NCBI RefSeq assembly: GCF_030684315.1
Contig: NC_081355.1
Location: forward strand, 66,736,924 to 66,800,923
Direction of reading: 5' to 3'
DNA from: Stegostoma tigrinum
Taxonomy: Eukaryota
Length of the DNA stretch: 64,000 nucleotides
Notes under the pieces: model-generated
What the model was told of the DNA's origin: nothing
The model's database searches: none
What the model saw: only the letters and a program-made list of their open reading frames with translations
Program-made: the position numbers and the translations under genes
Shown here: piece after piece, positions 3,225 through 62,738 of the stretch
How the letters are laid out: the number at the start of each line of letters is the position of its first letter
Numbering within the stretch: the first letter of the stretch is position 1

Positions 3225-3317
3225 AACATGGTGTGAATCTGGATGAACACAGCAGGCCAAGCAGCATCAGAGGAGCAGAAAAGCTTGACATTTCGGGTTG
3301 GGTTCCTTCTTCAGAAA
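3225..3317 (-). mobile_element. Penelope terminal-repeat mini-insertion with hammerhead motif
   Basis: Minus strand TTT-CTGAAGA-AGGAACCCAACCC-GAAAT-GTC-AAG; 19-bp flanking duplication at 3206-3224 and 3318-3336 (2 mismatches). Confidence 0.8.
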
Positions 3318-3520
3318 ATAGGATGCTTCCTGTGATGCATCTGTAAAAATTTGTACACGTCTTTATGGACATGCCAAAAACCCTTGGCCTCCTGAGGAAG
3401 TACAGGCATTTCTGTGCTTCTTTCACCATAGTGTCAATATGGGTGAACCAGGGCATATTGTTGGTGATCATCATGTTCAGAAATTTGATGCTGTCAACCA
3501 TCTCGCCTTCTCCCTTCCAG

Positions 3521-3842
3521 AGGTGGCATGGTGGCTCAGTGGTTAACACTGCTGCCTCACATCACCAGAGACCCTGGTTTGATTCCACCCTCAGGTGACT
3601 GTCCATGAAGTTTGCACGTTCTCCTAGTGTCTACATGGATTTCCTCCAGGTGCCCTGGTTTCCTCTATCAATTCAAAGAGGTGCAGGGTAGGTGGATTGG
3701 CTGTGCTAAATTGTCCATAGTGGCCAGGGATGGTTAGGTGGGCCAAACAGGGGACTGGTTCTGTTTGAGATGCCCTTCAGAGGGGCAGTGTGGACTTTTG
3801 GGGCTGAATGGCCTGTTTCCATGCTGTAGGGATTGTATGATC
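3521..3842 (+). mobile_element. HE1-type tRNA-derived V-SINE
   Basis: A/B-box head ggtggctcagtggttaacactgctgcctcac..ggtttgattcc, V-core tttgcacgttctcc..ggtttcctc, CR1-like tail gctgaatggcctgtttcc. Confidence 0.9.
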
Positions 3843-4248
3843 TCCACCTCAGTGCCATTGATATAGACGGGAATGTGCCCTCCACTCCACTTCCTGAAGT
3901 CAATGATCAGCTCCTTTGTTTTGCTGATGTTGGTGGAGAGATTGTTGTCTTTTCATCACATTGTTAAACACACTATCTCCTTTCTATACTCCATCTCACT
4001 ATTGTTTGAGGTGTGACCTACACCCGTGGTATTGTTAGCAAACTTGTACAAGGAGTTGGTATTGAATCTGGGCACACAGTCATCTGTGTATAAGGATAAA
4101 GTAGGGGGCTGATTACACAGCCTTGCAAGGCACTCATTCTGAGGATTATCATGGAGTAGGTGTTGTCGTCTATCCTTATTGACTGCAATCCGTTGGTCAG
4201 GAATTTGAGAATGCTGTTACAGAAGAGGGAACAAAGACCTAGGTCCAA

Positions 4249-4334
4249 TGAAGGGTCTAAGCCCGAAACATCTGCTTTTGTGCTCCTGAGATGCTGCTGG
4301 GCCTGCTGTGTTCATCCAGCCTCACATTTTATTA
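4249..4334 (+). mobile_element. Penelope terminal-repeat mini-insertion, hammerhead core clipped
   Basis: tgaagggtctaagcccgaaacatc..ctgctgtgttcatccagcctcacattttattatc; TCCAA repeated at 4244-4248 and 4335-4339. Confidence 0.8.
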
Positions 4335-6905
4335 TCCAAGTTTAGAGATAGGTTTGTTTGGAATTATAGTGTTGAAGGTGGAACTGTAGTGAATTACTAG
4401 GGGACTAGTTTTGTTGTTGTCCAGATGTTCCAGGGATGAGTATAGGGCTTAGGGAGGCGGCGTCTGTTTTGGACCTGTTGCACCAGTAGGACAATTGAAA
4501 AGGATCAAAGCAATTTGGGAGGCTGGAGCTGATATGAGTGATGACCAACCTCTCAAAGCACTTCATAATGATAGAGGTCGGAGCTACTGGCCAGTAGTCA
4601 TTGCGGCAGGCTGCATGTTATTTCTTTTGCACTGGATGATGGTGGACTTCTTGAAGCAGATGGGAACTTCAAATCATAGTAAAGGAAAATAGAAGATGTC
4701 CGCAAGCTGATCAACACAGGATCTGAGTGCATGACAAGGGATTCCATCCCAGCCAGTCCCTTTCTTTTGATTTACACTTAAGAAGGTCAACCTAACATCT
4801 GCGCTCATGACTGTGGGTACCGGTGCATCTGAAGCTGATGGGACAGGTGACATTGTTTCATTGACCCTCTGTTCAAAGTGAGTGTGGAATGCATTAAGCT
4901 CATAGAGTGGGATGTACTGCTTCCTGCAATTCTGTTAGACTTTGCTTTGCAGTCAGTTTGTTGTATAAGCCTTTCCATGAACGACAGGTTTCCGTGTGGT
5001 TGGTTTGGTCTCAAGCTTAGTTTGTATTGCCTCTTGGTGTCTCTCATGGCCTTATGAAGGTCATATCTGGATTTCCTGTGTAGATCAGAGTTGCCTGACT
5101 TGAATGCCTCAGGCCTGGACTTTGATAGGGAGTGGATCTCCCAGTTCATCCATGGTTTCCAGTAGGGGCACATTCAGATTAATTTCTTCAGAACACAGGC
5201 ATCTACACACAGTCCATCAACTCTAAGCATATCTGTAGAAGGCCTTCTATTTCCTCAGACTAACATTGCGCTATTTTCTGTACTGAGTCCTCATGCTTCA
5301 AGTTTTGCTTGGAATCTGGGAGGAGGAGCACAACGTTGTGATTTGATTTTCCAAAATGCGGATGGGGAATGAAGTGGTAGCATCTTTTATGGTTGCCTAG
5401 CAATGATCAAGGATATTTGGACCTCCTGCAGAACAGGAGACATGTTAGTGGCATTTTGGTAGCTCATTATTGAGGTTGACCTGCTTGAAGTCACTGACTA
5501 CGATAAACAAGGCTTCGGGATATTCCATCTGAAGACTGTTTGGAGTTTTGTATACTTCATCAAATGCACTCTCCGTTTCTGCTTCAAGTTAAATGTAGAT
5601 CACTGTCAGGATAGTGGATAGTATGGTAGTATGTTAAATGATCTCAGTCCGGGGAGCAATGACTCTCAAAGTCACCACATCTGAGCATCAGGAGGTGTTG
5701 ATCAGGAGGCAGACATCACCGTTCCTTGCCTCGCCTGTGGACGCTGATAGGTCCATTCAGTGAATTGAGAAACTAAAAGGTTGTAAAGCACATTGAGCTG
5801 TAGCAGAGGTGAGCCATTTCTCTTTGAAACAAAGCACACAGCAGTCTCTCAGTTCTCTCAATCTTTCAGCTTTAATATTTAATGCAATGATTGTTGACTA
5901 ATATGAACAAGTTGGCCAGTTTCAGCACGACTGATTTTGGAAATAGCCACAGGTTAAATGACTTTTAAAACTAGAGTTGAGTAAATCCATTTAAAATAAA
6001 AAAGGACTAATTAATAATTTGTTGGGGCTTGAGACGGAATTAAAAGAGGATTTTGATTAAGTTCTGAGGTAATGGATCTGACCTGGGAATCATGCTTTCT
6101 AGTGGATTTCAATTTCTTTTCTTGGCTTGCAATTATATCCCTCAGGAATATTGATGGATTTTGTGTCATAAAGCACTGGATCTGTACAGAATTTAAAAAC
6201 TGTATTCTTGAATTAACTTCCTTATGATATCTAAGTGTTAATACTATGCCTAGGGATAAGTTCTCAACTTAACAGTATAGTCTTGAAGGCTTCTGAAGTT
6301 TGCTAAACATCAGAAGGCCTCAGTGTTTCTACGTTTATTGATTGATCCAGATGGATATATTGCAGCATTTGAAACATTTATTTAGAAAGTTGGTTTCTAC
6401 TTCTAAGTGGGGCAGCGGTGAAATGAAACATATCCCCAGAACAGAAATTTGATGGCTTCCAACTGCAGATTTTCAGTTTTGCTGACAGACCTTCATTGAG
6501 GCAACAATTGCTCCCCCACCAAAAAATACCATATAACATACCTCAGGCAACACAGACTGAGAAACAGCAATTTCCAACATTAATTAAAAGAAATCAATGG
6601 CTGCAGTACCAGAAAACAGAATGTAGGCTTGGCATACATTTTACCTTGTCTTTTGAGGATGTTTTGAGTTTTAAAGGCTTCTGTATTTAACTCTACTTTT
6701 GGATGATCTCTTTAAATTTCTGAGAAACTGAAATAAGCTATTTCATTGACCCAGGAAAATTTATTAGGCCCTCCGACAACATCAGCAGACATACACTCAA
6801 AATAAAGATTAGCTATGCTTTACCAGTTTGAGATCTAACTCTGGGCTTCAGTCAACTAAGCAGTTTCGATACATTATTCCCAGAGTAGTCTCACTATCAC
6901 AATAC

Positions 6906-7281
6906 TGGCATGGTAACTCAGTGGTTAGCACTGCAGCCTCACAGTGCCAGGGACCCAGGTTTGAGTCAAGCCTCAGGCAACTGTCTGTTTGGAGTTTCCC
7001 CAGTCGCCGCCCCCCACCCCCCCGCCCCCCCCAAGCCCTGTGTCTGCATGGGTTTCCACCGGGTGCTCCAGTTTCCTTCCACAGTCCAATAATGTGCAGG
7101 GTAGGTGGGTTGACCATGCTAAATTGCCCATAGTGTTGAGGGATATGTAGGTTAGATGGGTTAGCCATAGAAAATGGAGGGATAGGGCAGGGGCATAGGT
7201 CTGGGTGAAATGCTCTTCAGAGCGTCGGCGTGGACCTGTTGGGCTGAATGGCCTGTTTCCACACTGTGGTGATTCTGTGAT
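6906..7281 (+). mobile_element. HE1-type V-SINE
   Basis: ctcagtggttagcactgcagcctcacagtgccagggacccaggtttgagtc head, V-core, tail gggctgaatggcctgtttccacactg. Confidence 0.9.
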
Positions 7282-8508
7282 AAATAAATAAAACAGAACC
7301 TAATTAGGAGCAGCATAGCACAGTAAGATGCTGGCATCTAGTGGCATTCTTGAAAATGAATGAACTTCTAAGCAAGAGCCAGAAAGCTCAATTCTCTAAA
7401 ACTGTACATGAACTACCGTTGTTCAGCAGATATTGAATCAGCATTATTAATTTACCCTTTGTAAACTCTATTTGTCGTACTGGAAATATTTACCTGTAAA
7501 TACTGTTGGTAATAGATAGGGGGCAACTTTATTTTTGATTTCAATGTTAATGTGCACCCCTTTACTGTCCCTCATGGAATTATTTTTGCCACTTTGTTTT
7601 AATTTCACTTTTTACAGATGATTAAATATGAACATCTCTGTTCATTTGTTTCCAATGTATGTGCTTGTAAATTTTTGTCATCTTTCTGCTTGGGAAACTA
7701 GTGAATGCTTGCAACACAAGGAAATTAATTTTATAGAAAATATTAAATCTCGAGATGTTTCTTTAATTTTTCTCATGCACTTTAGATAGAGCATAAGAAA
7801 GGGGTCGTCACACTGTTTCTATCCTTTCATCTTCAAGGCAGCTGTTCTTGTCCATTTCTATCAAATAGACTGCATCTCACTGGAATTCTCTTTCTAGTTC
7901 CTTTTATAGTCAGGTACACACTAGTCCTTCTCCACAATTTGTCACCTAAAATTAAGAGTCAATGCACAGCTCCCTTCTGCACCGTATATATCATCAGAAT
8001 CTGTGGAATCCCTTACTCTCAGTTTCTTTCATCTTCCCATTTTATTGCTTTAAGTATCCAAATGTGTCAATGCTTCAATATGATTGTCTCATCATGATTT
8101 TTCACTTCATTAAAAAAAACCTCTTCAACAGTTTGGTGGGCTGTAGGTCTTCTTCGTAGATGCTGAATAGTATTATTAAAAGTAAAGAAAAGATTGTGTG
8201 TAAAGCTGTAATGCAACACCAAGCATATTTTTAAAGTTAAATATTTAAAATAAGACCCAACCCAAGCATATTTTGCTAAAATATTCACCTCTTGACAATA
8301 AGATGAGGAAGTATAAAGTAGAAAATTGAAATATGAATCTAAAAGTCTGTGCATTGAACTTAAGCACTGAATACACTTGCTACAAATACAAATAACAATT
8401 AGAACTTTGCAAAATTTATTAGAGAATTAGTCAGTTTTTTTAACCATTTAAACTAATGAACCAGAATGGCAGATAAGCTATATGATAGCAGTCCCATAAT
8501 CTCAATGT

Positions 8509-8616
8509 AGGGCCCTTGTGGTGCAGCGATTTGAACCAGGAGGTACCCAGTTCAAGTCTCACCACCTCTGAAGGTGTGCAATAAAATGTCTGAATAGGTC
8601 AATTCGGAAATTATCT
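8509..8616 (+). mobile_element. Short tRNA-derived SINE (~110 bp family)
   Basis: gggcccttgtggtgcagcg..gttcaagtc B-box; similar to 16966-17085, 60735-60850 and 62880-62990. Confidence 0.6.
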
Positions 8617-8840
8617 AAAACTATGTTACTTCCTGAGTTGACTACAAGTGGTGCTTTGTGCCTACCTCCTCGAACTTGTACGAGCAATCAAAGTGCAAAA
8701 ATATGAAAAGAACATTTCACAGAATGATCAGCTCATTATTCCTACATTTTAAACATCCAAAATTAATCTTTTGTCATGTTTTTAAAATCTGAAAGTGGAG
8801 TGCAAATTTTCAGCTCGCGTCAATAAGTCATTATGACAAA

Positions 8841-8854
8841 GTAACTATGGAAAC
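8841..8854. promoter_or_regulatory. RFX X-box-like motif in a repeat-free, TAAT-rich block
   Basis: GTAACTATGGAAAC fits the X-box pattern GTHNYY-AT-RRNAAC; function not shown. Confidence 0.35.
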
Positions 8855-9862
8855 ACGGCAATTACCTCCACAGTTGGCAGTTGATGCTGCCGTGATAAAA
8901 TGATAATTAGCAGCTAATTAAGCAAATCTTTGTTCATCACGGCATTAATATGGAAGTGGTTCCTAGTTGTCCATTTAATGACGGAGAGTTCAACTTCATA
9001 TTGAAAACCTATATGGAATTCTTGAAAGTATTCATTGAATATAGCACGAATGAGAAACAACTTAAAATATTAACTTCTGACTCTAGCCCCCAAAATTCTG
9101 TGTGATATTGTATCACTGTACAAAGTTGCAACCAACCTTAACTACTGCCACGGGCCCTTAAAACATGCATTTGCATCTATACACCACCTTTCACAATCAC
9201 AATGGCACTTAGGGATTGGCAATAATGCAATGAAAGACCTCGGCACTCACAACACATTAGTGAAAAAAGACGCTGGATTTCAGCATCGCCTGACAGTGAT
9301 TCTGCATTTACTGCAGTGCCAGAATTTGGCAAGGGTAAGGGTGAGAGTGGGGGGAATTGGAATATCTTAGGGACCATCTTGTGCATTTTCCGCCATGCAC
9401 TCCGGGAGAACAGGGCAGATTTGCACAGGAATACCTAGGGTTGAATGTTAGGAATGACAGTAATCTTTCCCCATTGTGAAGATTATTCAGTTCAACAAGA
9501 ACAAAATTAATACAATATAGAAATAACTCAAAAAATGCTTATGGCTAACCTGATAAAAAGAATTGGGTTTTTACTGCAGTCTGTCTGCAGTGACAATGAT
9601 CCTGAAAAGCACAATTCCCACCCCTGGATGTAGCACTTTCTATTTCATAGTAGTAAGAATGGATTCATTCAGGGAATCATGCATTTGCAGATTATGGAGG
9701 CATTTGCCAATGAAATCATCAGCTGCCTCCACTTATCTCAGATTCTGGAAGTCAACAGTATGTAACCAGAGTGTGCAGTGTAGACCTAGTTACACCATTT
9801 CTGAACTTCGGCCATGTCTTTGGATTTTCAGGGATCACATTTTAAGAGACATGATACCCTTT

Positions 9863-9884
9863 TGGATATGGATATGGATATGGA
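9863..9884 (+). repeat. (TGGATA)n short tandem repeat
   Basis: tggatatggatatggatatgga. Confidence 0.85.
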
Positions 9885-10837: not shown

Positions 10838-11014
10838 TGTATACTTTTTCGTTCTCTTACTGCCATTCATTAACATATATTGAAATATGGCTCAAATATA
10901 TTCCCAAATGTGTGTCCATGTGTTTCCAAGCTGAAGAGTTGCAGACAATCTTGGATGTCCAATATGTGCACTTAACACACAAGAATGAATTAAAACAGGA
11001 GATATGAATTTCCT

Positions 11015-11085
11015 CAGACAGAGCAAGAATTGCTGATGCTGGAGTCAGAGATAACACAGTGTGGAGCTGGAGGAGCACTACAGGT
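11015..11085 (-). mobile_element. Penelope terminal-repeat mini-insertion (3' tip only)
   Basis: gatgctggagtcagagataacacagtgtggagctggagga; perfect 15-bp duplication AGATATGAATTTCCT at 11000-11014 and 11086-11100. Confidence 0.85.
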
Positions 11086-11418
11086 AGATATGAATTTCCT
11101 GATGCTGACTCAGTTGCCCTTTCAAATCTTTGGATAATATGTTAATTTCAGTGCAGGCAGTTTCATTTATTCCACATTGGTCTCCTGGTTATTCCTCAAT
11201 CTGTAGTAAGGTGGTCACTGCAGCAATTTTAGGTCTTTGTTTCTTCATTTTCAAAAAAAAATGGTTCCTGACCGTCTCTGGTATTCAATTCAGATGAAGG
11301 ACACTGAATTTTGATAGCCCTTATATATAATTTTGTAATACCTGCCAGAAACTTCCAAAATCTGTTCCTGCTTATTAGCTTGTCAACCCTAGGTCAACTA
11401 CTTATATTTACAAAAAAC

Positions 11419-11549
11419 TAATAAAAAACTGCGGATGCTGTAAATCAGGAACAAAAACAGAAGTGCTGGAAAAGCTCAGTAGGTCTGGCAGCATCTGTGA
11501 AGAAAAAAATCAAAATTAATGTTTCGGATCTGTGACTCTTCCTCAGAAG
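11419..11549 (-). mobile_element. Penelope terminal repeat (second subfamily) with hammerhead motif
   Basis: Minus strand TT-CTGAGGA-AGAGTCACAGATCC-GAAAC-ATT-AA at 11516-11548. Confidence 0.8.
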
Positions 11550-15696: not shown

Positions 15697-15825
15697 GAGA
15701 TAGTAAGAAGTGCCGATGCTGGAGTCAGAGATAACACAGTATGGAGCTGGAGGAACACAGCAGGCCAGGCAGCATCAGAGGAGCAGGAAAGCTGGTGTTT
15801 TGGGTTGGGACCCTTCTTCAGAAAA
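15697..15825 (-). mobile_element. Penelope terminal-repeat mini-insertion, decayed hammerhead
   Basis: Minus strand TTT-CTGAAGA-AGGGTCCCAACCC-AAAAC-ACC (mostly CpG decay of CGAAACGTC). Confidence 0.8.
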
Positions 15826-15934
15826 TTTTCCATGCTGTGTAATTAATGAGACAAGATCTGCAGGTATTAAGGTCATTAACAAACAATAATCCCCCTTAGT
15901 AGGCAATGTACCACTGTCTCATCTGAATCTCACT

Positions 15935-16965: not shown

Positions 16966-17085
16966 AAGGGCTTTTGTGGCATTGGTAAAGTGCCTTGCTC
17001 TGAATCAGGGGGTGTGGGTTCAAGTCCCATCTGCTGTAGAAGTGTATAAAAACATCTTTGAATGGATTGATATGAAAAATATCTA
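16966..17085 (+). mobile_element. Short tRNA-derived SINE
   Basis: gtggcattggtaaagtg A-box, gggttcaagtccc B-box. Confidence 0.6.
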
Positions 17086-19842: not shown

Positions 19843-20196
19843 GGGGTAGCATTTCTGGTCAGAAATGCTGCCTCACAGCATCAGGGACCCAGGTTCAGTT
19901 CCACCCTCGGGCAACTGTCTATGTGGTGTTTGCACATTCTCTCCGTGTCTGAGTGGGTTTCCTCCAGGTACTCCGGTTTCCTCCCACAGTCCAATGACAT
20001 GCAGGTTCGGTGGACTGAGCATGCTAAATTACCCACAGTGTCCTGGGATGTGCTGTCCAGGTGCATTAGCCATCGAAAGTGCGAGGTTACAAGAATTGGA
20101 TAGAGAGTGGATCTGGGTGGGATTCTCTTCCAAACGTCAGTGTGAACTCAAAGGGCTGAATGGCCTGCTTCCGTACTGTAGGGATTCTGTGATTCT
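19843..20196 (+). mobile_element. HE1-type V-SINE
   Basis: gctgcctcacagcatcagggacccaggttc, V-core gtttgcacattctctccgtgtct..ggtttcctcccacagtcc, tail gggctgaatggcctg. Confidence 0.9.
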
Positions 20197-21750: not shown

Positions 21751-22049
21751 TTGGTGTTATATCTGTCTGCTTGGGAGCTTTGTCAGGAAAGTTTATATCT
21801 TCAGGCAAGTTCCAATGGTTTACTCTTTGAGTTTTATCTGATTTTCCTACCTAAGCTGGTTGGACGCAAACAGTAAGGCTCAGACTGAGTACGCAGCTCT
21901 ACGTTTGATCCTTTGCTGAGCACGGAAAATGAGACAGAAAGCTTGATCATGTCACTTTCACCTTAGCCTGTAATTCCTCTCTGCACATATCCGAGGACCC
22001 CCTCCTGGAGGAACTTCAAAGGTTCTCTAAGGTATAGAGGGAAAAGATG

Positions 22050-27671: not shown

Positions 27672-27768
27672 AGTTCTGAGGAAGGAACACTGAACCCAAA
27701 ACATTAACTCTGCTTTCTCTCCACTGATGCTACCTGAACTGCTGAATTTTTCCAGCAATTTCTGTTTC
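27672..27768 (+). mobile_element. Penelope terminal repeat (second subfamily) with hammerhead motif
   Basis: AGTT-CTGAGGA-AGGAACACTGAACCC-AAAAC-ATT-AACT; stem I AGTT/AACT pairs perfectly. Confidence 0.8.
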
Positions 27769-35611: not shown

Positions 35612-36792
35612 TAGAACATAGAACGTAGAACATAGAAGAGTACAGCACAGAACAGGCCCTTCAGCCCACGATGTTGTGTCGACCATTGATCCTCATGTAT
35701 GCACCCTCAAATTTCTGTGACCATATGCATGTCCAGCAGTCTCTTAAATGTCCCCAATGACCTTGCTTCCACAACTGCTGCTGGCAACGCATTCCATGCT
35801 CTCACATCTCTCTGTGTAAAGAACCCGCCTCTGACATCCCCTCTATACTTTCCTCCAACCAGCTTAAAACTATGACCCCTCGTGTTAGCCTTTTCTGCCC
35901 TGGGAAATAGTCTCTGGCTATCAACTCTATCTATGCCTCTCATTATCTTGTATACCTCAATTAGGTCCCCTCTCCTCCTCCTTTTCTCCAATGAAAAGAG
36001 ACCGAGCTCAGTCAACCTCTCTTCATAAGATAAGACCTCCAGTCCAGGCAGCATCCTGGTAAACCTCCTCTGAACCCTCTCCAAAGCATCCACATCTTTC
36101 CTATAATAGGGCGACCAGAACTGGACGCAGTATTCCAAGTGCGGTCTAACCAAAGTTTTATAGAGCTGCAACAAGATCTCATGACTCTTAAACTCAAGCC
36201 CCCTGTTAATGAAAGCCAAAACACCATATGCTTTCTTAACAACCCTGTCCACTTGGGTGGCCATTTTAAGGGATCTATGTATCTGCACACCAAGATCCCT
36301 CTGTCCCTCCACACTGCCAAGAATCCTATCCTTAATCCTACACTCAGCTTTCAAATTCAACCTTCCAAAATGCATCACCTCGCATTTATCCAGGTTGAAC
36401 TCCATCTGCCACCTCTCAGCCCATCTCTGTATCCCGTCAATGTCCCGCTGCAGCCTACAACAGCCCTCTATACTGTCAATGACACCTCCGACCTTCGTGT
36501 CATCTGCAAACTTGCTGACCCATCCTTCAATCCCCTCATCCAAGTCGTTAATAAAAATTACAAACTGTAGAGGCCCAAGGACATAGCCCTGTGGAACACC
36601 ACTCACCACTGACTTCCAGGCAGAATATTTTCCTTCTACTACCACTCACTGTCTTCTGTTGGCCAGCCAATTCTGTATCCACACAGCTAAGTTCCCCTGT
36701 ATCCCATTCCTCCTGACCTTCTGAATGAGCCTACCATGGGGAACCTTATCAAATGCCTTGCTGAAGTCCATCTGCCACCTCTCAGCCCATCT
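35612..36792 (-). mobile_element. Young 5'-truncated CR1 LINE, near-identical to 22050-23435
   Basis: ORF 35707-36645 with PQGYVLGP, FADD, LVRPHLEYC; tail agaacatagaac; inserted in an older CR1 (~35440-35611 and 36793-36985). Confidence 0.95.
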
Positions 36793-39916: not shown

Positions 39917-40041
39917 GACAGCAAGAACTGTAGATGCTGGAGTCAGAGACAACATAGTGTGGAGCTGGAGGAACACAGCAGGCCATGCAGTACCAGAGGA
40001 ACAGGAAAGTTGACTTTTCAGGTCAGGACCCTTCTTCAGAA
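39917..40041 (-). mobile_element. Penelope terminal-repeat mini-insertion with hammerhead motif
   Basis: Minus strand TT-CTGAAGA-AGGGTCCTGACCT-GAAAA-GTC-AA. Confidence 0.8.
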
Positions 40042-41795
40042 GTACTCCTGCCTGATGCTCCGAGGAAGTGCAACCTCAAAAACAGCATTAAGCAAGGTGG
40101 ATGGTTGTTGAAAATTTCAAGAGTGTTATTCAAATGTCTGGAAGGGAACAGTAATATTTGAATCTGGAGAGAATGCAATAGGTTCTATAATTCCCATGGC
40201 ACCTCTGTTCAGAACACTGAGTGATCTGCTTAGGGGTAGGTCTGTGACAGTGGAAGACAGCCTCCAAGTCCCTTTCATCAAACTGTACATCCCCTCCATC
40301 AATTAGGTCCTGCTTCAAGTTGTCAAAAAAGCATCCTGTTCTGGAAGAGAAATAGCCAGAATGTGCAGAGGCTGGTTTTTCTGTATGTGAAATGTTTCAT
40401 ACAGTTGAAGTGTTGTGAGATGTACCTGAGGCTTGTATATTGCTTGTGAAACGTGTATTAGTGTGGAAAGTTGTTAATATCAATATACAGTGGGACAAAA
40501 TATTGTAGAGCTTGTGCTGCTGATGGTAGTTATTGAGAAGTGGGTTTGTGAAATGGGATTTTACTTTGTACACTCATAGCAAGTCTTTCAATTTACAGGA
40601 TACTAGAATCATATATTTGGGCCAGGACTTCTGTCAGTCATCTCCCAAATGATTTTCACTCATATATTCTTCATTAACTGTCTCTATGGCATCTTTCATG
40701 ATTGAGAAAGAGGGCATCTCTCCTCTTTCAGGTAGGCAGCATATACAGTTCCAGAAAACTTGTTTGCAATAAGGATTTCAATGTGAAGTGCATAAATGTC
40801 AATTTTCAGCTCTTCATGCATATTGAAATCCTGACAATTATCAATAAGGCCCAAAATTTCATGTTAAATACAGACTTTCAAACATGTGTTTCTTAGTAGC
40901 ACAGAAGCTCTTTTCACCCTCTTTCCAAGATTAGCTACAGTGAGATAGTTCTCTCAGTTGGGGGGTGTTCCAGAAATGTTGCTCAATGAATTGTAATAGG
41001 ACAGAAGGTCTCATCTAAGGTCTGAGGGAAGAATGAAAATATCTGTCCCAGAATTACTCAGCATCAGTCATATTCTCCACAGTTTCTCTTCCTTGTTTAC
41101 ATCTCCAGGTTTCACTTCATGGCACAGTGCTGCCTGGAACTGAGGAGAAGATGAAAACCTACATCAGGATTTTAAAGGCAACAGTGGCCATGTCCACTTG
41201 CTGGCAAGTTCATGGAAATGCAACCTCAACTCTGATAACTTTGACTAGATTTTGTGTGGTTAAGGCATCAGGCCTCCAATCATTTCATGGGCGAAATCCC
41301 TCCTTCAAGAACTGTTGGTCATTCAGAAGGAAGGTGACACTTCAGTCCCAGCAGCACCACTGCTTGGGTTTAGTGAACCCAGCACAAGGCAGAGGTTCAA
41401 AATCTGACATTTCCTGCTCTAAATGGCCCTAGTTATTCAATTCTTTTAACACATAATAACATCGCTGATACTTAATAGATGCAAACAGACAGATTAGGTG
41501 TTAGATTTACTTAATAATGTCATTATACCTAGGTACAGAGAAAAGAATATCACATCACCTTGTTCTGACGCTATCTTGGATTACAGGATATTTTACACAA
41601 GTGGTAAAATACTGATTAAATTAAATAAAACAGATCATTTTTCCCTCTCCATTGACTTCACCCTCTTTGTTCCTCTAGTTGGCATTAATGTGTACTTCTA
41701 TCAAAATTAATACTAAAGCAATGGATACAGTAATACAGCATAATGAAAAAAGTTGTTCAGTGGATCATAGACTAGTAGATACACATTTGTAGAAC

Positions 41796-47889: not shown

Positions 47890-50081
47890 ACTAGCCTTGG
47901 GTGTCTGTCTGTGTGGAGTTTTCACATTCTCCCTGTGTCTGCGTGGGTTTTCTCTGGGTGCTCCGGTTTCCTCCCACAGTCCAAAATTGTGCAGGCTAGG
48001 TGAATTGGCCATGCTAAATTGCCTGTAGTGTTCAGGGGTGTGTGGGTTATAGAACATAGAACATTACAGCACAGTACAGGCCCTTCGGCCCTCGATGTTG
48101 TGCCGACCTGTCATACCGATCTGAAGCCCATCTAACCTACACTATTCCATGTACGTCCATATGTTTATCCTATGATGACGTAAATGTACCTAAAGTTGTC
48201 GAATCTACTACCGTTGCAGGCAAAGTGTTCCATTCCCTTACTACTCTCTGAGTAAAGAAACTACCTCTGACATCTGTCCTATAGCTTTCACCCCTCAATT
48301 TGAAGCTATGCCCCCTCATGCTCGCCATCACCATCCTAGGAAAAAGGCTCTCCCTATCCACCCTATCTAACCCTCTGATTATTTTATATGTTTCAATTAA
48401 GTCACCTCTCAACCTTCTTCTCTCTAACAAAAACAGCCTCAAGTCCCTCAGCCTTTCCTCGTAAGACCTTCCCTCCATACCAGGCAACATCCTAGTAAAT
48501 CTCCTCTGCACCCTTTCCAAAGCTTCCACATCCTTCTTATAATGCGGTGACCAGAACTGTAAACAATACTCCAAGTGCGGCCGCACCAGAGTTTTGTACA
48601 GCTCCACCATAACCTCTTGGTTCTGGAACTCGATCCCTCTTTAATAAATGCTAAAACACTGTATGCCTTCTTAACAGCCCTGTCAACCTGGGTGGCAACT
48701 TTCAAGGATCTGTGTACATAGACACCGAGATCTCTCTGCTCATCTACACTACTAAGAATCTTATCATTAGCCCTGTACTTTGCCTTCTGGTTGCTCCTAC
48801 CAAAGTGCATCACCTCACACTTGTCTGCATTAAACTCCATTTGCCACCTCTCAGCCCAGCTCTGCAGCTTATCTATGTCTCTCTGCAACCTACAGCATCC
48901 TTCGTCACTATCCACAACTCCACCGACCTTAGTGTCGTCTGCAAAGTTACTAACCCATCCTTCTACGCCCTCATCCAGGTCATTTATAAAAGTGACAAAC
49001 AGCAGTGGACCCAACACCGACACTTGCGGTACACCACTGGTAACTGGTCTCCAGGATGAACATTTCCCATCAACTACCACCCTCTGTCTTCTTTCAGCAA
49101 GCCAATTTTCGATCCAAACTGCTATATCTCCCACAATTCCATTCCTCCGTATTTTGTACAATAGCCTACTGTGGGGAACCTTGTCGAACGCCTTGCTGAA
49201 ATCCATATACACCACATCAACCGGTTTACTCTCATCTACCTGTTTGGTCACCTTCTCAAAGTACTCAATAAGGTTTGTGAGGCACGACCTTCCCTTCACA
49301 AAACCGTGCTGACTATCCCTAATCAATTTATTCTTTTCTAGATGATTATAAATCCAATCCCTTATAACCTTTTCCAACACTTTACCAACAACTGAGGTAA
49401 GGCTCACTGGTCTATAATTACCAGGGTTGTCTCTACTCCCCTTCTTGAACAGGGGAACCACATTTGCTGTCCTCCAGTCATCTGGCACTATTCCTGTAGA
49501 CAATGACGAGTTAAAGATCAATGCCAAAGGCTCGGCAATCTCCTCCCTGGCTTCCCAGAGGATCCGAGGATAAATCCCATCTGGCCCAGGGGACTTATCT
49601 ATCTTCACCTTCTGAAGGATTTCTAATACCTCTTCCTTGTGAACCTCAATCCCACCTAATCTCGTAGCCTGTATCTCAGTATTCTCCTCGACAACATTGT
49701 CGTTTTCTAGAGTGAATACTGTTGAAAAATATTCATTTAGCACTTCCCCTATCTCATCTGACTCCACACACAACTTACCACTACTATCCTTGATTGGGTC
49801 TAATCTTACTTTCATCATTTTTTTATTCCTTAAATACCTATAGAAAGCCTTAGGGTTTACCCTGATCCTATCCGCCAACAACTTCTCACGTCTCCTCCTG
49901 GCTCTTCTGAGCTCTCTCTTTAGGTCTTTCCTGGCTACCTCATAGCCCTCAAGTGCCCTAACTGAGCCTTCACATCTCATCCTATAGGGGGATGGGTCTG
50001 GGTGGGATGTTCCAAGGGGCGGTATGGACTTGTTGGGCCAAAGGGCCTGTTTCCACACTGTAGGTAATCTAATCTAATCTA
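47890..50081 (+). mobile_element. HE1 V-SINE split by CR1 (pieces ~47890-48052 and 49983-50081)
   Basis: V-core at 47905-48030 ends gtgtgggttatag and resumes tatagggggatgggtctgggtggg..(aatct)n. Confidence 0.85.
48053..49982 (-). mobile_element. Young 5'-truncated CR1 LINE (one frameshift near 48630)
   Basis: ORFs 48448-50058 (KSPGPDGIYPRIL, NYRPVSLTS, DFSKAFD, FADD) and 48170-48610 (LVRPHLEYC..RGDLIE). Confidence 0.95.
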
Positions 50082-51207
50082 CACGGTGTTCAGATCTATT
50101 TTGAACTTATTTGAGAAGGAGGCACAACATTAGTGCATGCAGAACATTTTGGACAACATTAAGTCTGGAGCTGACAAGTGGCAATAACCTTCTCCAACAA
50201 CAGAGATTTACATCATCTTCCTATGACTTTCAATGGCAATGCCTTAATCAATTCCACCCAAATCAACATCCTGGAATAACCATTGACCAAATACTTAAAC
50301 GTTTCAAACACACATGCACTACAGCTCCAAGAGTACGTAAAATGATGGGTGTTCAACAATGTTTGGCTTACCTCAAAAATACAAATCAGAAGACTGATTA
50401 TGTCCTGTCTACTTGCCTGGATGAGCATGGCTGCTACAGCACTTAAGAAGTTTGATGGCTAACAAGCAAAACAGCCAAATGGTTTGGCACACTGACTCCT
50501 TCGACTGCTCCTTCCAAATTTGTGATCTTTGCAACTTCAAAGTATGCAGACTCTCGAACACCACAAACTGCAAGTTCCACACCAAAGTACACACAACCTT
50601 GGCTAGGTAATATATCACTATTCTTTCAAAGAAGCTGGGTCACAATCTTAGAAATCCCTCCCCAGCAGCATTTTGATGTACCTAACTTCAAAAAGGCAAT
50701 TCAGCACCACTTTATCAAGGGAAATTAGAGAGGGCAATATCTGTTGACCATGCTATTAATACTCGCACCACATGAATGCATAAGAAGATTTTTTGCCGTC
50801 ATTTCAATCTTTAAAGATGCATTTAAAAAACCAGTAAGTTATTATTTCCAGAGCTAATCAATATTAACTTGCAATATAATCAGATATATGACAATTAGAA
50901 TTGCCTTTACAACTAATACTTTCCAGTCCCTATGTGTGCACATTTACAATGCTTGGCATGTTAATCAGAATAGTTGTGTTAATTTTCATGGATGAGATGT
51001 AAATGAAGGGCACTTGACTAAAACTAAAGCATTTGTGTTTTCCAGTGTAAAATAGATAAAAAGTAAGCATAAGGAGTTAAAGCAAGATTAGAAATAACAG
51101 TTCAAGGATAGAGTAAAACATCAAAAGAAACCTTTTTATACATAGAAAGCAGGTATCAAAATAACCTGGAATCCAAATGCATAGAATATTGCAAACGGTT
51201 TTGGTCC

Positions 51208-51310
51208 TCTGATGAAGGGTCTAGGCCCGAAATGTCAGCTTTTGTGCTCCTGAGATGCTGCTGGGCCTGCTGTGTTCATCCAGCCTCACATTTTATTATC
51301 TTTGATTCCA
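51208..51310 (+). mobile_element. Penelope terminal-repeat mini-insertion with intact hammerhead core
   Basis: CT-CTGATGA-AGGGTCTAGGCCC-GAAAT-GTC-AG at 51207-51238; body nearly identical to 4249-4334. Confidence 0.85.
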
Positions 51311-51895: not shown

Positions 51896-52171
51896 ATCGA
51901 AACAGGTGTAATATTGGAAATGAGACCACTTTAAATTTGAACTATTCAACTTTGAATCCTTATGGATTATCCTTATGTTGTCCAATTTACAATGTTATTG
52001 TTTGTAAACAGTCAACTCTCAACACAGAGATATTCAGTGAATTTGATGAACAATGCTTTGTGCCTGTACAAACTGCATGTGGCTGTTGTGCTGAGGTTGA
52101 TCTGAATTTCAAAAACACAATGAGCACTATGCATCTGTTCAGCTTCATGACAAACCTGACAGCAAGAAAAC

Positions 52172-52296
52172 TAAACACAAAGAACTGCAGGTGTTGGAAA
52201 TCTGAAATAAAAATAATTAAACAAGCAGGTTTGGCAGCATCTATGCACAGAAAATACATTTAACATATCACACGAAGTGACACTTCGTCAGAACTG
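52172..52296 (-). mobile_element. Penelope terminal repeat (second subfamily), decayed hammerhead
   Basis: Minus strand CAGTT-CTGACGA-AGTGTCACTTCG..; body aagaactgcaggtgttggaaatctgaaataaaaa. Confidence 0.7.
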
Positions 52297-54895: not shown

Positions 54896-54929
54896 ATTTA
54901 CTCCTGCTCTATATTTTCCCTTTTCCATA

Positions 54930-56190: not shown

Positions 56191-56377
56191 CACTGAAATA
56201 AGAGCCAACTGCTACGAGCAAGGTTGACTTTCAAGGGCCTGACTGCCAGTGGGCCAGTTGACAATGTTAAGTGGGCAATTAATTCTCAGTTGAGGGCCTC
56301 ATCCTATCACTGATAGCTTAACCTGATACTAAGAGCAGCCAAAATGTCTCCTTAACTGGCCCAGTGAGATTATCAGA

Positions 56378-56581
56378 GATAGTAGGAACTGCAGATGCTG
56401 GAGAATCCGAGATAACAAAGTGTGGAGCTGGATGAACGCAGCAGGCCAAGCAGCATCTTAGGAGCACAAAAGCTGACGTTTCGGGCCTTTCTGATGAAGG
56501 GTCTAGGCCCAAAATGTCAGCTGTTGTGCTCCTAAGATGCTGCTTAGCTTACTATGTTCATCCAGCTCCACACTTTCTTAT
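56378..56581. mobile_element. Inverted twin Penelope terminal-repeat element
   Basis: 78-bp arms 56411-56488 and 56505-56582 around ttCTGATGAagggtct; perfect 16-bp duplication CAGTGAGATTATCAGA at 56362-56377 and 56582-56597. Confidence 0.9.
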
Positions 56582-58005
56582 CAGTGAGATTATCAGATGG
56601 CTCTTCAGCAAGTTCATTACTATTGCGCACTCCAATAACTCAAAAAGGTTTCATCCCTCCCACCTCCCACATTGGCCTCACAAAACTTACACCCCCACCT
56701 CAACAACAAATGTGTCAGACATGATATTCAGTGCAGTAATTTGAGAGTTATTCGGAATGTAAAAGGAAGGACATGACTACAATGCTTAATGACAACTGTG
56801 CGATGGATTCACTGAAATGATTCAGGATAGAATACAACAGCCAGCAAAATCCCTCAAGCTCCGAGGTAGGAGTTGTATGTACAATTTATAATTATCATGT
56901 CATCAAGCAACAAAATAATTAAGCTTTTAAAATGGTTCACATGTGCAGTTGTTAAAGCATATTGAAGTTGCATAGATGTTTAATGCTTCCCTTTTTAATG
57001 TATTGCCAATGGCATGTTTCTGAGAGCGGTTCTTTCAGCTTATTTAGCACTTGCTATAATCATTTAGTTTGAACTTTGAAAGCAGTAATGTTTTCAATTA
57101 TAATTACATCTTCACTTTCAGAATAAATAAAAGTTGGGAAGGGAATCCCAAGCTGCAACAATAGGCTAACTCCAGATTAAAAGCAAATGACTTTTATAAT
57201 TATTAGAGTCAAATTGACTAACTTCAGGCCAGCATTATAACTTGAGATGATAAGCATGTGTATCCCAACCAGTGAGACGTATTGAGTTGAATTCAAGGCT
57301 GTCATGTTACATCTGGTAGATAAAGGAGATCAGGACCTGCCTATAAAAATTCAAACTATTGATTCTCGGGTATTTTCTGAAATGAAAATTCTACTGTTAC
57401 GTATTTTATGAAGACAACACTAAAGCCTTCAATCTAGTGAATAAAAGGTAGTTAGAGTTTTATCTCCATGAGATTTTAGTACTGCAAACATTTTAGGACG
57501 ATATTATATTTGATAGTATGCAAAAGCAAATTAGAAGCATATGTATCACAAAGAAACAGTATCCTTCAATTTGGTTTCACAGAGTATAGTTATGTTTGGG
57601 ACTACCAGTGGACGTTAGCAATTTCCTATTGTTCCTTATAATTATCAAAACTCTTGGTCTGGCAGGCCACACTTTCTCTGCATATAAACCGCTGCATTTA
57701 AGAAACAGAGTACCAGCGAATATTACCTGAAAGGGAGTTCTACAAGCAGGATGATCAGTATGTTCTTCTTTGCTGTGGATATTCCACAAGGACATTAAGT
57801 TGATTTACAGTATGCTAAAGGTATAATTGTTTCTGGCACAGATATGAAGGTTAGGTTTGTGTGATTGTCATGCTGTTTTATGGTATCTGCACACACCTCC
57901 ATATTTAGCAATGTAATCACAGTATAAAAGAAAGGCAAGGATTATATGTAAGATATAATAATGAAAACATTTTTTCTGGAAACAGACTAAATGCTTTACT
58001 GAGTG

Positions 58006-59610
58006 GGAGATAGAAAGAACTGCAGATGCTGGGAGCCAGAGTCGATAAAATGTGGAGCTGGAGGAACATAACAAGTCAGACAGCATTTGATGAGCGGAAA
58101 AGTTGATGTTTTGGGTCTGGACCCTTCACCAGGATTGGGTTTGGTGGAGGGGAGGGAGCTCAGAAATAAATAGACAGAGGTGGGTGAGGCTGAGCAAAGG
58201 TAAGTGGGATGGTGATAGGTGGATGCAGATTGGGGGTTGTACAGATTGGTCAGTGGAGAGGGTGGGTTGAATACATGAGAAGGAAGATGGACAGATTGTG
58301 TCAGATTAAGGTGGTGGGGATGAGAGGAACGACTGGAAATGAGATGAGACTAGGGGCGGGGAGATTTTGAATCTGGTTAATTCTATGTTGAGGCCATTGG
58401 ACTGTGAGCTCCTGATGTGGAATACAAGGTGTTGTTCCTCCAGTTTATGTGAGGCCTCATTTTGACAGTAGAGGAAGCCCAGGATGGACATATTGCCAGG
58501 GAAATAGGAGGGGGAGTTGGAATGGCTGGCAACAGGATAGTGTCGATTGGTACACAGATGCTCTGCTAATTGGTCATCAAGTCTGCACTTAGTCTCTCTG
58601 ATGTAGAGGAGCCAACATCTGGAGCAATGAATGCAATAAACCAGTTTGGAAGATGTACAGTTCAAACCTTATCAGACATGGAATGATATTTTGGGGAGAG
58701 TGGGTGTGTAGGGGCCAGTGTTGTACTTCCTGCAGTTGCAAGGAAAGGTGCTGGGTGTGGTGGAAGTGTTGGCAAGAAGTGTGGAGCTAACGAGGGAGTT
58801 GCGGAGTGAGCAGTCCCTACAGAAAACAGAAAGTGATAGGGAAGGAAATATCTTTTTTAGAGTGGGGTCTGATTGCAGGTGGCGAAAATGGCAGTTAATG
58901 ATGCATTGGGATTTGGAGGTTGGTGGTGTGGTATCTGAGGACCACAGGGATTCTGTCCTTATTGTTGGTGGTGGGGGGGGGGGGAGTGCAGAAGGGCAAG
59001 AGATGTGGTTAAGGGCATTATGAATCACGGGAAAGGGGAAGTGACTGTCCTTGAAACAGGAGGACACCTGGGATGTCTGGGAGTGGAACACTTCAGCCTG
59101 GGAGCAGATGTAGTGGATGCAGAGGATTTGGGAGTATGGGATTGGGCTTTTACAAGAAGGTGGGTGAGAGGAGATGTAGTCAAGGCAGCTGTGGGAAACA
59201 TTGGGTTTGAAATAGATGTTGGTGCTGTGTCAGTTGCCGGAGATGGGAACAGAGACGTCCAGGAAGGGAAGGGAGTTGTCAGAGGTGATCAGGGTGAATT
59301 TGAAGTCGGGGTGAAAGGTGTTGGTGAAGTGGATGAACTATTTGGTCTCGTTGTGGGAGCACGTGGCAGTACCGATAGCTGCGGAAGACGACTGTTCATT
59401 CGAAGAGGCAGGCATCGCTCGGACGCACGCAGGTGCCCATTACCCCATCCCACCAACCTTCCCCAACCCCACCCCTCTCCCTCTATTTACTTCCGAGCTC
59501 CCTTCCCCATCCCCACTCCTGATAAAGGATTAGATCTGAAACATCGACTTTCCTGCTCCTCAGATGCTATCTGACCTGCTGTGGTCCTCCAGCTCCATAT
59601 TTATCAACCC
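58006..59610 (-). mobile_element. Penelope-like retroelement, 5'-truncated, with inverted terminal repeat
   Basis: GIY-YIG ORF 58306-58665 (LVYCIHCSRC..LYIRETK..EH..VASH..GLN), linker 58672-59091, RT tail FTNTFHPDFKFT..LPFLDV (~59250-59340); terminal repeat at ~58006-58250 and an inverted copy at ~59436-59610. Confidence 0.9.
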
Positions 59611-60094
59611 TAAATAAATTATTGTAAGAGTGCTATCTGTTTGTTGAGATAGAAATTTCTTGCTATTTGGTTTGATGTGCCACAGGCATTCCATTCTGAT
59701 AGTTACCAGAGGACTGGGCATGGGTGGGGTGCAGATTGAAAATGGACCAAGTGCCAGTTAAAGCCATAGAGTGGAGATCCCACTGAATTTACCAGCAGGA
59801 CTTATGAGCAGAATCACGGCATTTGTCCAAGTGGCTGTGGGGCATGCAGTAAGAGAGTTCATTTGAAGGAGGTTGTTGCTGGCGAGCTCTGGGGCTATTC
59901 CTCAACAACTTGAAAAAAAGAAGAGGTTTTGATCAGAGGTAAGGATAATGGTTATGATTAAAAGTTGAGGAGAAAAGCTTAGTAATAGGGATGGCCGGGA
60001 AGAAGAGGCTTTAAGTGGTGACTGGATGAGACTAAACACAATTCCTTCAAGACTAGGAGGTACTTCTCACCCACAACAAGTCCTGAAATGGGCA

Positions 60095-61230: not shown

Positions 61231-61858
61231 GAGAAATATGGTGGCAACGTGTGCAAATTAAGGGTAATGAAGACCCCAAAAGCAGCAAGTAATAAAGGAA
61301 AAGAAAATACAAAGATAGCTAACCACGTAAATACTTCAGCAAATCAGAAGACAGAAAGACAAAGAAATCTGCTACCTCCTGAGCACTATAATAACTGCAA
61401 GCAAGCTAGGAAGCAAAAAGAGGAGGCAGGACAATTCAAACAATTTTGAAGAAAAATAATGACATTTGTTTGGTTCTCTTGAGTTTCAGATTAGCACCAT
61501 TGTAAAATGGATTATCTGCAGCTACATTATTAGTATGGGGAAGACTGCAAAATCAGCTTCCATTGTTACCTGGAACATTAAAACTTCATATCATCTTCAG
61601 AAGATCATAACTAAGTGAGAAAATGTGAGCAAGTCCAAAGATAAAAGCAACCAGGAATTTTGGTCAACGTCATCGAGCATGCAAGTTGTCAATTCTTCAG
61701 CTACGAAGAGGAATGGCTTTCAGTCTGATAACAGGAAGGAACAGTGCTTAAGAAAACAGAAGAGCTGACATTCTACTTGGTGGGGACAAGTTATTTTAAG
61801 GAGAAATCAGAAAGCCTTCGCCTACTTGAAAAGAAAACCAGCATGAACTTGGAGGTTA

Positions 61859-62039
61859 AAATTATATCAGAGATAATGGGAACTGCAGATGCTGGAGAAT
61901 CTGAGATAACTAAGTGTGGAGCTGGATGAACACAGCAGGCCAAGCTGCATTTCTGATGAAGGGTCTAGGCCCAAAACATGCGCTTTTGTGCTCCTAAGAT
62001 GCTGTTTGGCCTGCTGTGTTCATCCAGCTTCACACTTTG
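61859..62039. mobile_element. Inverted twin Penelope terminal-repeat element
   Basis: Arms aagtgtggagctggatgaacacagcaggccaa / ttggcctgctgtgttcatccagcttcacactt; CTGATGA core; perfect 15-bp duplication TGAACTTGGAGGTTA at 61844-61858 and 62040-62054. Confidence 0.9.
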
Positions 62040-62054
62040 TGAACTTGGAGGTTA

Positions 62055-62282
62055 TGAGCTGTAGAGCTGGATGAACTCAACAGGCCAGGCAGCATCAGAT
62101 GAGCAGGAGAGCTGACCTTCCGGCTCTGGACCCTTCTTCAGAAAGGTTCTTCATTTCTGAAGAAGGGTCCAGATCTGAAACGTTAGCTTTCCTGTTCCTC
62201 TGATGTTGCCTGACTGCTGTGTTCATCCAACTCTACACCTTGTTATCTCAGACTCCAGAATCAGCAGTTTCTATGATCTCTG
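62055..62282. mobile_element. Inverted twin Penelope terminal-repeat element with back-to-back hammerhead motifs
   Basis: Arms ~62061-62144 and 62154-62238; plus-strand core CTGAAGA(62157)-AGGGTCCAGATCT-GAAAC-GTT-AG is intact. Confidence 0.9.
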
Positions 62283-62604
62283 AACATTAAGGTAACTACT
62301 TTGACTTTTAAGAAGAGAAAGGGACACTCAAGAATCTCTACAATTATCCAAGTGATAGCGACTGAAGTTGAGAAAAGAGAGAGTAAATGATCCCATCAAT
62401 CTCAGAAACAAATCCGAACAAAATCAGAGAGGGGTATGAAACCACATCTTATACTAACCCTGTGACATTTCAGAATTTGAGGGAAAATGGCAGAAAATGT
62501 AAATATTGGGAGTAAAGATTTAGAGGGGCAGTAGAATGAGAAGTAATGACTTAATAGCGTTGAGTCCAAGAGATCTTAATGTCATGATGCTTTAAGTTGA
62601 CATG

Positions 62605-62738
62605 ACTGGAAGAGTCAGTAGACTCTCAACATTAATTCTGCTTTCTTTCCACAGATGCTGTTCTACCTGCTGAGTTTCATCAGCAATTTCTCTTTTCGTT
62701 TAAGATCTCCAGCAGCCGAAGTTCTTTGTTTTATTTTG
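62605..62738 (+). mobile_element. Penelope terminal repeat (second subfamily), decayed
   Basis: gaagagtcagtagactc stem II, aacattaa, ttccacagatgctg..cctgctgagttt..cagcaattt. Confidence 0.7.

What the first reader, a model, noticed from the sequence alone, without database searches (positions are those of the whole stretch)
3225..62738. Family of short hammerhead-ribozyme-bearing Penelope mini-insertions across the window
Seen: about 13 insertions of 70-230 bp (3225, 4249, 11015, 11419, 15697, 27672, 39917, 51208, 52172, 56378, 61859, 62055, 62605) consist only of the terminal repeat found on the Penelope element at 58006-59610. Most contain CTGANGA-A-[stem II]-GAAA(C)-NTH flanked by a short stem I, and at least two subfamilies are present. 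Established: this is the minimal type I hammerhead layout reported in Penelope-like element terminal repeats. Inference: these are non-autonomous, ribozyme-containing retro-copies mobilised by the Penelope RT/GIY-YIG protein. They behave like a SINE or retrozyme family at about one per 5 kb.
Basis: partly seen in the sequence, partly recalled or inferred. Interest (0 to 1): 0.8.

Follow-up and report, generated by a model that had tools for sequence, protein, structure and literature searches.

The report
Penelope run-off stubs bearing hammerheads
These short repeats are mostly dead-end reverse-transcription stubs of a known shark-like Penelope retrotransposon, not a separate mobile family, but their exact ends appear to record where the element's RNA starts and where its tiny ribozyme cuts.

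Summary
All 13 loci are real; an intact hammerhead core survives in only 5. They are the ends of Neptune-type Penelope elements, from at least two families, at about 1 arm per 3 kb genome-wide. They are true insertions, with target duplications in 30 of 36 family-A head-to-head pairs, but show no sign of being their own SINE or retrozyme lineage.

Their 5' ends pile up at the hammerhead's 5' edge, about 30 nt below a TATA-like box, with an extra G in the young family (87 of 100, background 58%). Their 3' ends fall at two sites, and head-to-head pairs take one of each (40 of 43).

Best reading: reverse transcription starts inside a capped sense RNA and runs off its 5' end. A smaller, base-precise peak of 5' ends at the predicted cleavage site (2128 versus 38 and 176 two bases either side) suggests cleaved RNA was sometimes copied. 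Palindrome joining or RT pausing are not excluded, and family B replicates this weakly. No RNA data.

Solo Penelope hammerheads are long known, and this scan noted similar stubs in another genome. I did not find the end-mapping in print.

The parts
3218..3317 (-). Family A (older) stub, 5' end at -3 from hammerhead C3, short 3' end; core intact with a 1-nt insertion after the cleavage triplet; 10-bp target duplication
   Evidence: homologous empty sites in L013 and L115 overlap by 13-19 bp
4247..4337 (+). Family A (young) stub starting at +3, short 3' end, inserted in another repeat; no duplication called
11013..11084 (-). Family A 3' fragment from +57 with long tail, no hammerhead; 15-bp target duplication
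11407..11549 (-). Family B stub, 5' end -2, long 3' end, core intact (GUU-type triplet, here decayed to AUU)
15697..15826 (-). Family A (older) stub, 5' end -3, long tail, core decayed; weak 8-bp duplication
27672..27767 (+). Family B stub, 5' end -4, short 3' end, core decayed
39919..40042 (-). Family A (older) stub, 5' end -2, long tail, core intact by the relaxed pattern
51206..51308 (+). Family A (young) stub, 5' end -2, short 3' end, core intact; 97-99% identical to genomic sisters, most of which continue upstream
52166..52296 (-). Family B stub, 5' end about -5, strongly decayed
56368..56582 (.). Head-to-head pair: minus arm from +14 with long tail, plus arm from -3 with short end; 15-bp target duplication
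58006..59611 (-). 5'-truncated, frameshifted Neptune-type Penelope copy: RT thumb and Zn-knuckle linker (58675-59229), GIY-YIG (58309-58668), 3' UTR with TATA-like box, decayed hammerhead (about 58105-58134), tail; inverted short repeat at 59445-59611
   Evidence: (about 50% amino-acid identity to young copies)
61866..62049 (.). Head-to-head pair: minus arm from +46 with long tail, plus arm from -1 with short end; 15-bp target duplication
62061..62281 (.). Head-to-head pair of older family A arms (5' ends -3 and -5); right arm core intact; no duplication called
62604..62744 (+). Family B stub, long 3' end, hammerhead core badly decayed

Best explanation
The minis are run-off (strong-stop-like) cDNAs of Neptune-type Penelope RNA. 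Positions are counted from hammerhead C3. (1, inferred) A promoter in the terminal repeat, with a TATA-like box at -34/-35, makes a capped sense RNA that starts at about -4, the 5' edge of the hammerhead. (2, ends shown, chemistry by analogy to Anolis Poseidon) The RT/GIY-YIG protein nicks the target with an 11-16 nt stagger and starts reverse transcription inside the RNA at one of two sites, about +93 or +128. (3, inferred) If it uses the sites near the RNA's 5' end, the cDNA is only 95-135 nt and runs off the cap, adding a G; if it uses the same sites after the ORF of a tandem transcript, an ordinary 5'-truncated long copy results. (4, pattern shown, mechanism inferred) When both nicks are primed, one at each site, two cDNAs join head to head. 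(5, weaker) In a minority of events the RNA had already been cut by its hammerhead, so the cDNA ends at +28. The stubs lack the upstream box and everything past the start sites, so they are probably dead on arrival.
For: 5' ends at -9..+1 in 49 of 160 family-A and 24 of 75 family-B arms, against 6 and 3 in the 50 nt upstream. 18 of 62 consecutive identical young copies end at -6..0 (by eye). Exact TATTTA at -34/-35 in 34 of 43 long A arms. T-G versus T-A before position -4: 87:13 of the first 100 of 873; one base further up 59:41 of 185; internal control 40:21 of 61; background 0.577. 3' ends bimodal. Pairs one long plus one short in 29 of 30 A and 11 of 13 B classifiable pairs. Target duplications 30 of 36 A pairs, 15 of 46 A solos, control 4 of 150. 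Cleavage site: 2128 at +28, 38 at +26, 176 at +30; symmetric hairpins 727 at the +28 palindrome, 53 at the +23 palindrome. Precedents: PMC11167929, PMC2377424, PMC3846280, PMC6425141.
Against: No RNA evidence for the start site, cap or cleavage. The extra G is not clear in family B (G 39, A 39, T 22 of the first 100 of 289, background G 0.295; p 0.05-0.11). One internal control gave 95 G of 100; most of these lie on small contigs and look like one amplified copy, and the 15 on C1-C19 split 11:4, but I could not verify the amplification. 63 of 160 A and 42 of 75 B arms start downstream of +1. Short and long labels cluster on the tree more than shuffled labels (16 versus mean 27; 18 versus 25). 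Only 5 of 40 B solos show a duplication. 73 of the first 100 +28 ends are symmetric palindromic hairpins, and family B shows a step but no peak at its site.
Confidence: 0.72

Rival explanations
1. An independent non-autonomous SINE- or retrozyme-like family: master minis are transcribed, processed by their hammerhead, and copied in trans by Penelope protein.
For: Defined 5' end, own target duplications, very high copy number. Non-random clustering of short and long labels on the tree. One of 6 variable positions differs between short and long copies (p 0.01 uncorrected). D. virilis Penelope has an internal promoter (PMC2377424), so minis could keep one.
Against: 16-18 label changes where a single mini lineage needs 1; short copies sit beside long ones in all parts of the tree. 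Three tail indel variants occur in both classes. Most minis keep the uncut hammerhead and are not in tandem arrays. 44 of 62 identical young copies are long.
Confidence: 0.1
2. Ordinary 5' truncation of long cDNAs, with RT or second-strand synthesis stopping at the folded hammerhead region; the +28 peak comes from a hairpin stop or palindrome microhomology, not cleavage.
For: The young sequence folds into a hairpin pairing 0..+5 with +24..+29 (-11.4 kcal/mol), whose base is near +28. The site begins a 4-nt palindrome and 73 of 100 listed ends are symmetric hairpins. In L184 the duplication itself supplies the first two bases. Many arms start between +2 and +70.
Against: A structural stop should fall at the 3' side of a fold, yet the main peak is at its 5' side and carries an extra G. 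Another 4-nt palindrome 5 nt away gives 14-fold fewer hairpins. Non-symmetric +28 ends (about 26% of 2128) still exceed +26 and +30, and include a solo with an abutting 7-bp duplication and a five-unit array running from +28 to the short start site.
Confidence: 0.12
3. Head-to-head forms arise by self-priming on an antisense template, as proposed for rotifer Penelope elements; solos are recombination or deletion remnants.
For: Palindromic junctions are common. PMC3846280 proposes this and reports solo repeats without duplications. Many solos here show no duplication (31 of 46 A, 35 of 40 B).
Against: Self-priming does not explain inner ends at the putative sense start with an extra G, nor arms with different inner ends. 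A recombination remnant would keep the upstream part of the repeat, which these lack.
Confidence: 0.06

Closest known systems
Minimal hammerheads (min-HHR) of metazoan Penelope-like elements (PMC4209133; read parts 1-2 of 4, no supplements)
   Same: No stem III, palindromic 15.2-16.2, extra base between 9 and 10.1, G10.1-C11.1, short stem I; mostly single motifs read as truncated elements; opposite-strand pairs noted.
   Different: About 10^6 arms by extrapolation versus 4,000-9,000 motifs reported for coelacanth and Xenopus (different method). Stem I only 2 bp in the most abundant family. That paper says in vivo evidence is absent; here 5' ends peak at the predicted cut.
Poseidon PAc of Anolis carolinensis (PMC11167929; read parts 1-2 of 4)
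   Same: Two internal RT start sites defining a 30-40 nt tail; both strands nicked and extended; hammerhead in the repeat; uncut RNA the main substrate.
   Different: Neptune-type protein here. The parts read do not map 5' ends of genomic stubs or an extra G, and report no RNA reads at the cleavage site.
Neptune-clade Penelope elements and their pseudo-LTR structures (PMC8557442, PMC3846280, PMC2377424; passages only)
   Same: RT then C-terminal GIY-YIG with a Zn-finger-like linker; heavy 5' truncation; inverted repeats with a tail on one arm and target duplications; start site inside the repeat; TATA plus Inr motifs noted in rotifer copies.
   Different: Head-to-head junctions were read there as antisense self-priming; D. 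virilis promoter is TATA-less and internal. Here the ends point to a capped sense template and priming at both nicks.
Animal non-LTR retrozymes (10.64898/2026.07.22.740005; read parts 1-3 of 5, supplements closed; PMC7229834 listing only)
   Same: Non-coding, type I hammerhead, related to Penelope terminal repeats; reported in one chondrichthyan; monomers dispersed.
   Different: Defined there as tandem repeats with a complete hammerhead in at least two consecutive units. The sampled copies are dispersed singles or inverted pairs; the one array seen (L193) lacks the catalytic core.

Membership tests
Penelope-like element, Neptune clade (source element) | RT followed by C-terminal GIY-YIG endonuclease | tested here: met
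   Young copies give RVT_1 E 2e-6 and GIY-YIG E 0.001-0.014, all below Pfam cut-offs; 129 longer homologues, most with RT and some with GIY-YIG domains, best E 5e-115. The window's own decayed frames gave no Pfam hit but match young copies at about 50%.
Penelope-like element, Neptune clade (source element) | [quoted passage not shown] | tested here: met
   C-x4-C-x2-C motif in the linker of young copies; feature named for Neptune and Nematis in PMC8557442.
Penelope-like element, Neptune clade (source element) | Placement with Neptune (not Nematis) in an RT tree with named references | not tested
   No named reference set held; Neptune is inferred from the linker and from vertebrate distribution in the 2026 preprint.
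Penelope-like element, Neptune clade (source element) | Direct or inverted pseudo-LTRs with an optional 30-40 nt tail | tested here: met
   3' ends near +93 and +128; inverted pairs; partial tandems.
Minimal type I hammerhead (min-HHR) | Core CUGANGA, extra base, stem II, GAAA, palindromic ACGU, NUH | tested here: met
   Majority state in both families; extra A in 112 of 114 parsed arms; H17 C in 79 of 89 A, U in 24 of 25 B. Intact in 56 of 117 sampled arms and 5 of 13 window loci.
Minimal type I hammerhead (min-HHR) | Stems I and II kept by covariation | tested here: inconclusive
   First stem I pair U-A in 103 arms and C-G in 3 of 114 (possibly one event); second pair U-A, U-G or C-G; stem II mostly plain conservation with U-A to U-G; third stem I pair broken in 79 of 89 family A arms.
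Minimal type I hammerhead (min-HHR) | Self-cleavage as a dimer or with protein help | not testable with these tools
   Only indirect: 5'-end peak at the site. Predicted minimum-energy folds are not the hammerhead.
SINE / non-autonomous family | Own target-site duplications | tested here: met
   30 of 36 A pairs, 15 of 46 A solos, 5 of 15 B pairs, 5 of 40 B solos; control 4 of 150.
SINE / non-autonomous family | Own lineage separate from the autonomous partner | tested here: not met
   16-18 label changes, shared variants; trees are weakly resolved (under 100 columns).
SINE / non-autonomous family | Promoter carried inside the copy (Pol III head or internal Pol II) | tested here: inconclusive
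   No tRNA, 5S or 7SL head at these loci; TATA-like box lies outside the stubs; an internal Pol II promoter was not tested.
Non-LTR retrozyme | Head-to-tail tandem units each with a complete hammerhead | tested here: not met
   Window and 720-kb sample copies are singles, inverted pairs or ends of long copies; arrays elsewhere in the genome were not searched for.
Non-LTR retrozyme | Abundant small circular RNA | not testable with these tools
   Needs RNA data.

The most novel reading that the evidence does not exclude
About a million stubs form a base-resolution fossil record of the Penelope cycle. They show a capped sense template (against antisense self-priming), priming of the two target nicks at two different internal sites in one event, and in vivo cleavage by a stem-III-less hammerhead with a 2-bp stem I, whose 3' product was itself reverse-transcribed and inserted.
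Probability: 0.45. Interest if true: 0.78.

Novelty: new variant of a known kind. Interest (0 to 1): 0.57.

Why it matters
That Penelope ends carry minimal hammerheads and litter genomes as single motifs is known since 2014. Open questions in the papers read are whether these ribozymes cut in vivo, which strand is the template, and how head-to-head repeats form. With tens of thousands of near-identical young copies, this genome lets all three be tested by counting ends, and gives exact predictions (cap at -4, cut at +28, starts near +93 and +128) for simple RNA experiments. It also warns that repeat libraries may label such stubs as SINEs or retrozymes.

Tried and rejected
Rfam scan: no hammerhead model matched. 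Pfam on the window's decayed frames: nothing. First boundary mapping dropped 38 arms and was replaced. In some searches the 40 reference copies aligned to themselves, which spoiled their 3' class; corrected. Control pattern set aside as a G control because most hits lie on small contigs; result reported above. My first reading, that no 5' ends fall at the cleavage site, was overturned. (737 versus 68) was judged confounded by hairpin microhomology and followed up. A third palindrome control (+15) did not complete. No full-length element was recovered; the longest copies (L053, L019) are 5'-truncated. Lunse et al. (PMC5785218) is not held; known only from a review passage (PMC6765202). Rejected: deletion remnants, miRNA hairpins (Rfam hits far below cut-off), chance motif.
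Full report
Observation. The window lies in a 3.2-Gb genome. The closest named protein relative of the element is from a bamboo shark, 67% identical over 66% of the query, so a shark-like host is an inference. Profile search finds all 13 loci plus both arms of the long element. Nine loci are family A, 70-87% like the 58006-59610 element, and four are family B. The core is intact in 5 of 16 arms examined and absent at 11015. Three loci are head-to-head pairs. Duplications were called at 5 of the 13 loci, one of them a weak 8 bp. Rfam found no hammerhead.

Source element. [quoted passage not shown] This is the Neptune/Nematis layout in PMC8557442 (passages read). The window copy is 5'-truncated, frameshifted, about 50% identical in protein to the young family, and framed by an inverted short repeat.

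Scale. One 36-mer has 84,665 exact copies. In 72 evenly spaced 10-kb stretches of 14 large contigs there are 163 family-A and 77 family-B arms, about 1.07 million arms if extrapolated.

5' ends. Positions count from hammerhead C3. Of 160 usable A arms (3 dropped), 38 run past -120, 10 end at -119..-10, 49 at -9..+1 and 63 downstream. Of 75 B arms (2 dropped) the numbers are 3, 6, 24 and 42. Among 62 consecutive exact young copies on C1, 18 end at -6..0 (11 in pairs, 7 solo) and 44 continue upstream (by eye; the script gave 19, one being a long copy with a mutated box). Long A arms carry exact TATTTA at -34/-35 in 34 of 43 (partly circular, as references were picked by this motif). Long B copies show TATAAA-like boxes in 3 of 5. 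The start contexts resemble TCT and Inr motifs (recalled, not from a call).

Extra G. With T fixed one base further up, to exclude long copies and start-site pairs, the base before -4 is G in 87 and A in 13 of the first 100 of 873 matches. One base upstream it is 59:41 of the first 100 of 185, an internal site gives 40:21 of 61, and background is 0.577. Against this, a second internal control gave 95:5, dominated by small contigs, 11:4 on C1-C19. Family B shows no clear excess (39 G, 39 A, 22 T). An untemplated G is read as a copied cap in L1 work (PMC6425141, passages).

3' ends and pairs. 3' ends cluster near +93 and +128, matching the tail and the two RT start sites shown in vitro for Anolis Poseidon (PMC11167929, parts 1-2). 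Of 36 A pairs, 29 have one long and one short arm, 1 two long, 6 unclassified. Of 15 B pairs, 11 are mixed, 2 alike, 2 unclassified. Duplications, mostly 11-16 bp, flank 30 of 36 A pairs, 15 of 46 A solos, 5 of 15 B pairs and 5 of 40 B solos, against 4 of 150 mismatched controls. A tail on one inverted arm is already described (PMC3846280, passages), where the junctions were read as antisense self-priming.

Own lineage? Short and long copies intermix: 16 label changes among 82 rows and 18 among 76 after removing upstream bases and second arms. Shuffles give means of 27 and 25, so there is clustering, which I ascribe to older subfamilies having more stubs; the trees are weak. Three tail indel variants occur in both classes and 1 of 6 variable positions differs (p 0.01 uncorrected). 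I find no mini-only family.

Ribozyme. The layout is the min-HHR of PMC4209133 (parts 1-2). Family A has a 2-bp stem I and a GUC triplet; family B has 4 bp and GUU. The first stem I pair is U-A in 103 and C-G in 3 of 114 parsed arms, including the window's inverted arm. Covariation is thin, and predicted minimum-energy folds are not the hammerhead.

Cleavage-site peak. Patterns demanding two transversions before a given start found 38 ends at +26 (about half are 1-nt deletions), 2128 at +28 and 176 at +30 (backgrounds 0.23-0.27; the +26 pattern is two bases shorter at its 3' end). Of the first 100 at +28, 73 are symmetric hairpins on a 4-nt palindrome and 27 are not (by eye). Such hairpins number 727 at +28 and 53 at the palindrome at +23. 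I fetched 11 loci chosen by eye, 10 from those 27 and one array. One is a solo with an abutting 7-bp duplication, one has a 14-bp duplication and 4 filler bases, one is ambiguous because the duplication supplies two bases, three are solos without a clear duplication, three join other element parts, and two are head-to-tail repeats, one with five units from +28 to the short start site. In family B the counts are 13, 28 and 20 at -2, 0 and +2 from its site, or roughly 2, 14 and 10 after removing indels of intact copies by eye: a step, not a peak. The 720-kb sample shows only 4 of 160 ends at +28. So most stubs copy uncut RNA, and a few percent may copy the cut product; RT pausing at a hairpin whose base is at +29 remains possible.

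Mechanism. Shown: the two 5' peaks, the G excess in the young family, the two 3' ends, mixed pairs, duplications. Inferred: capped start at -4, run-off, priming of both nicks, cleavage. By analogy with the Anolis protein, which needs RNA beyond the start sites, stubs should not move again.

Novelty. Solo min-HHRs as truncated elements, start sites in the terminal repeat, tails and inverted repeats are all in print. Seven answered searches on Penelope listed no paper whose title or abstract start describes mapping stub ends to a capped start or to the cleavage site. Subscription journals, Repbase, Dfam, Lunse et al. and the supplements named above were not seen.

Verdict. A new variant of a known kind: ordinary as a repeat, useful as a record of mechanism. 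Interest 0.57.

Noticed in passing
window 22038-23426, 35612-36771, 48049-50073: Long LINE-type RT frames, CR1-like by eye; the first two are 97% identical over 1161 bp in opposite orientation.
   Followed up: no
window 3524-3841, 6906-7281, 19850-20193, 47905-48049: Another dispersed repeat, 66-85% alike between copies, that looks like a tRNA-derived SINE (label recalled).
   Followed up: no
window 16970-17038: tRNA-like match below the Rfam cut-off, 25 of 29 bits; probably a SINE head.
   Followed up: no
L193:1-420: Five head-to-tail 68-69 bp units running from the predicted cleavage site to the short RT start site; no catalytic core.
   Followed up: partly
L031-L050: [quoted passage not shown] These loci were picked for holding that stretch.
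   Followed up: no
L128, L158, L185: Stubs or short copies inserted into, or joined to, the coding part of another copy of the same element.
   Followed up: no
G000 small contigs C61-C411: One truncated-copy junction recurs on dozens of small contigs, suggesting a copy amplified inside a larger repeat or array.
   Followed up: no
L020, L021, L030: Three loci 97-99.9% identical over the whole 3.1 kb: segmental duplicates or assembly haplotypes.
   Followed up: no
window 51211-51255: In the young family an ATG inside the hammerhead core opens a 13-codon frame; the main ORF seems to start after the tail. Family B lacks this ATG.
   Followed up: no
window 59512-59556, L061:8758, L104:2616: A rarer group with a C-G first stem I pair instead of U-A; the window's long element belongs to it.
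   Followed up: partly
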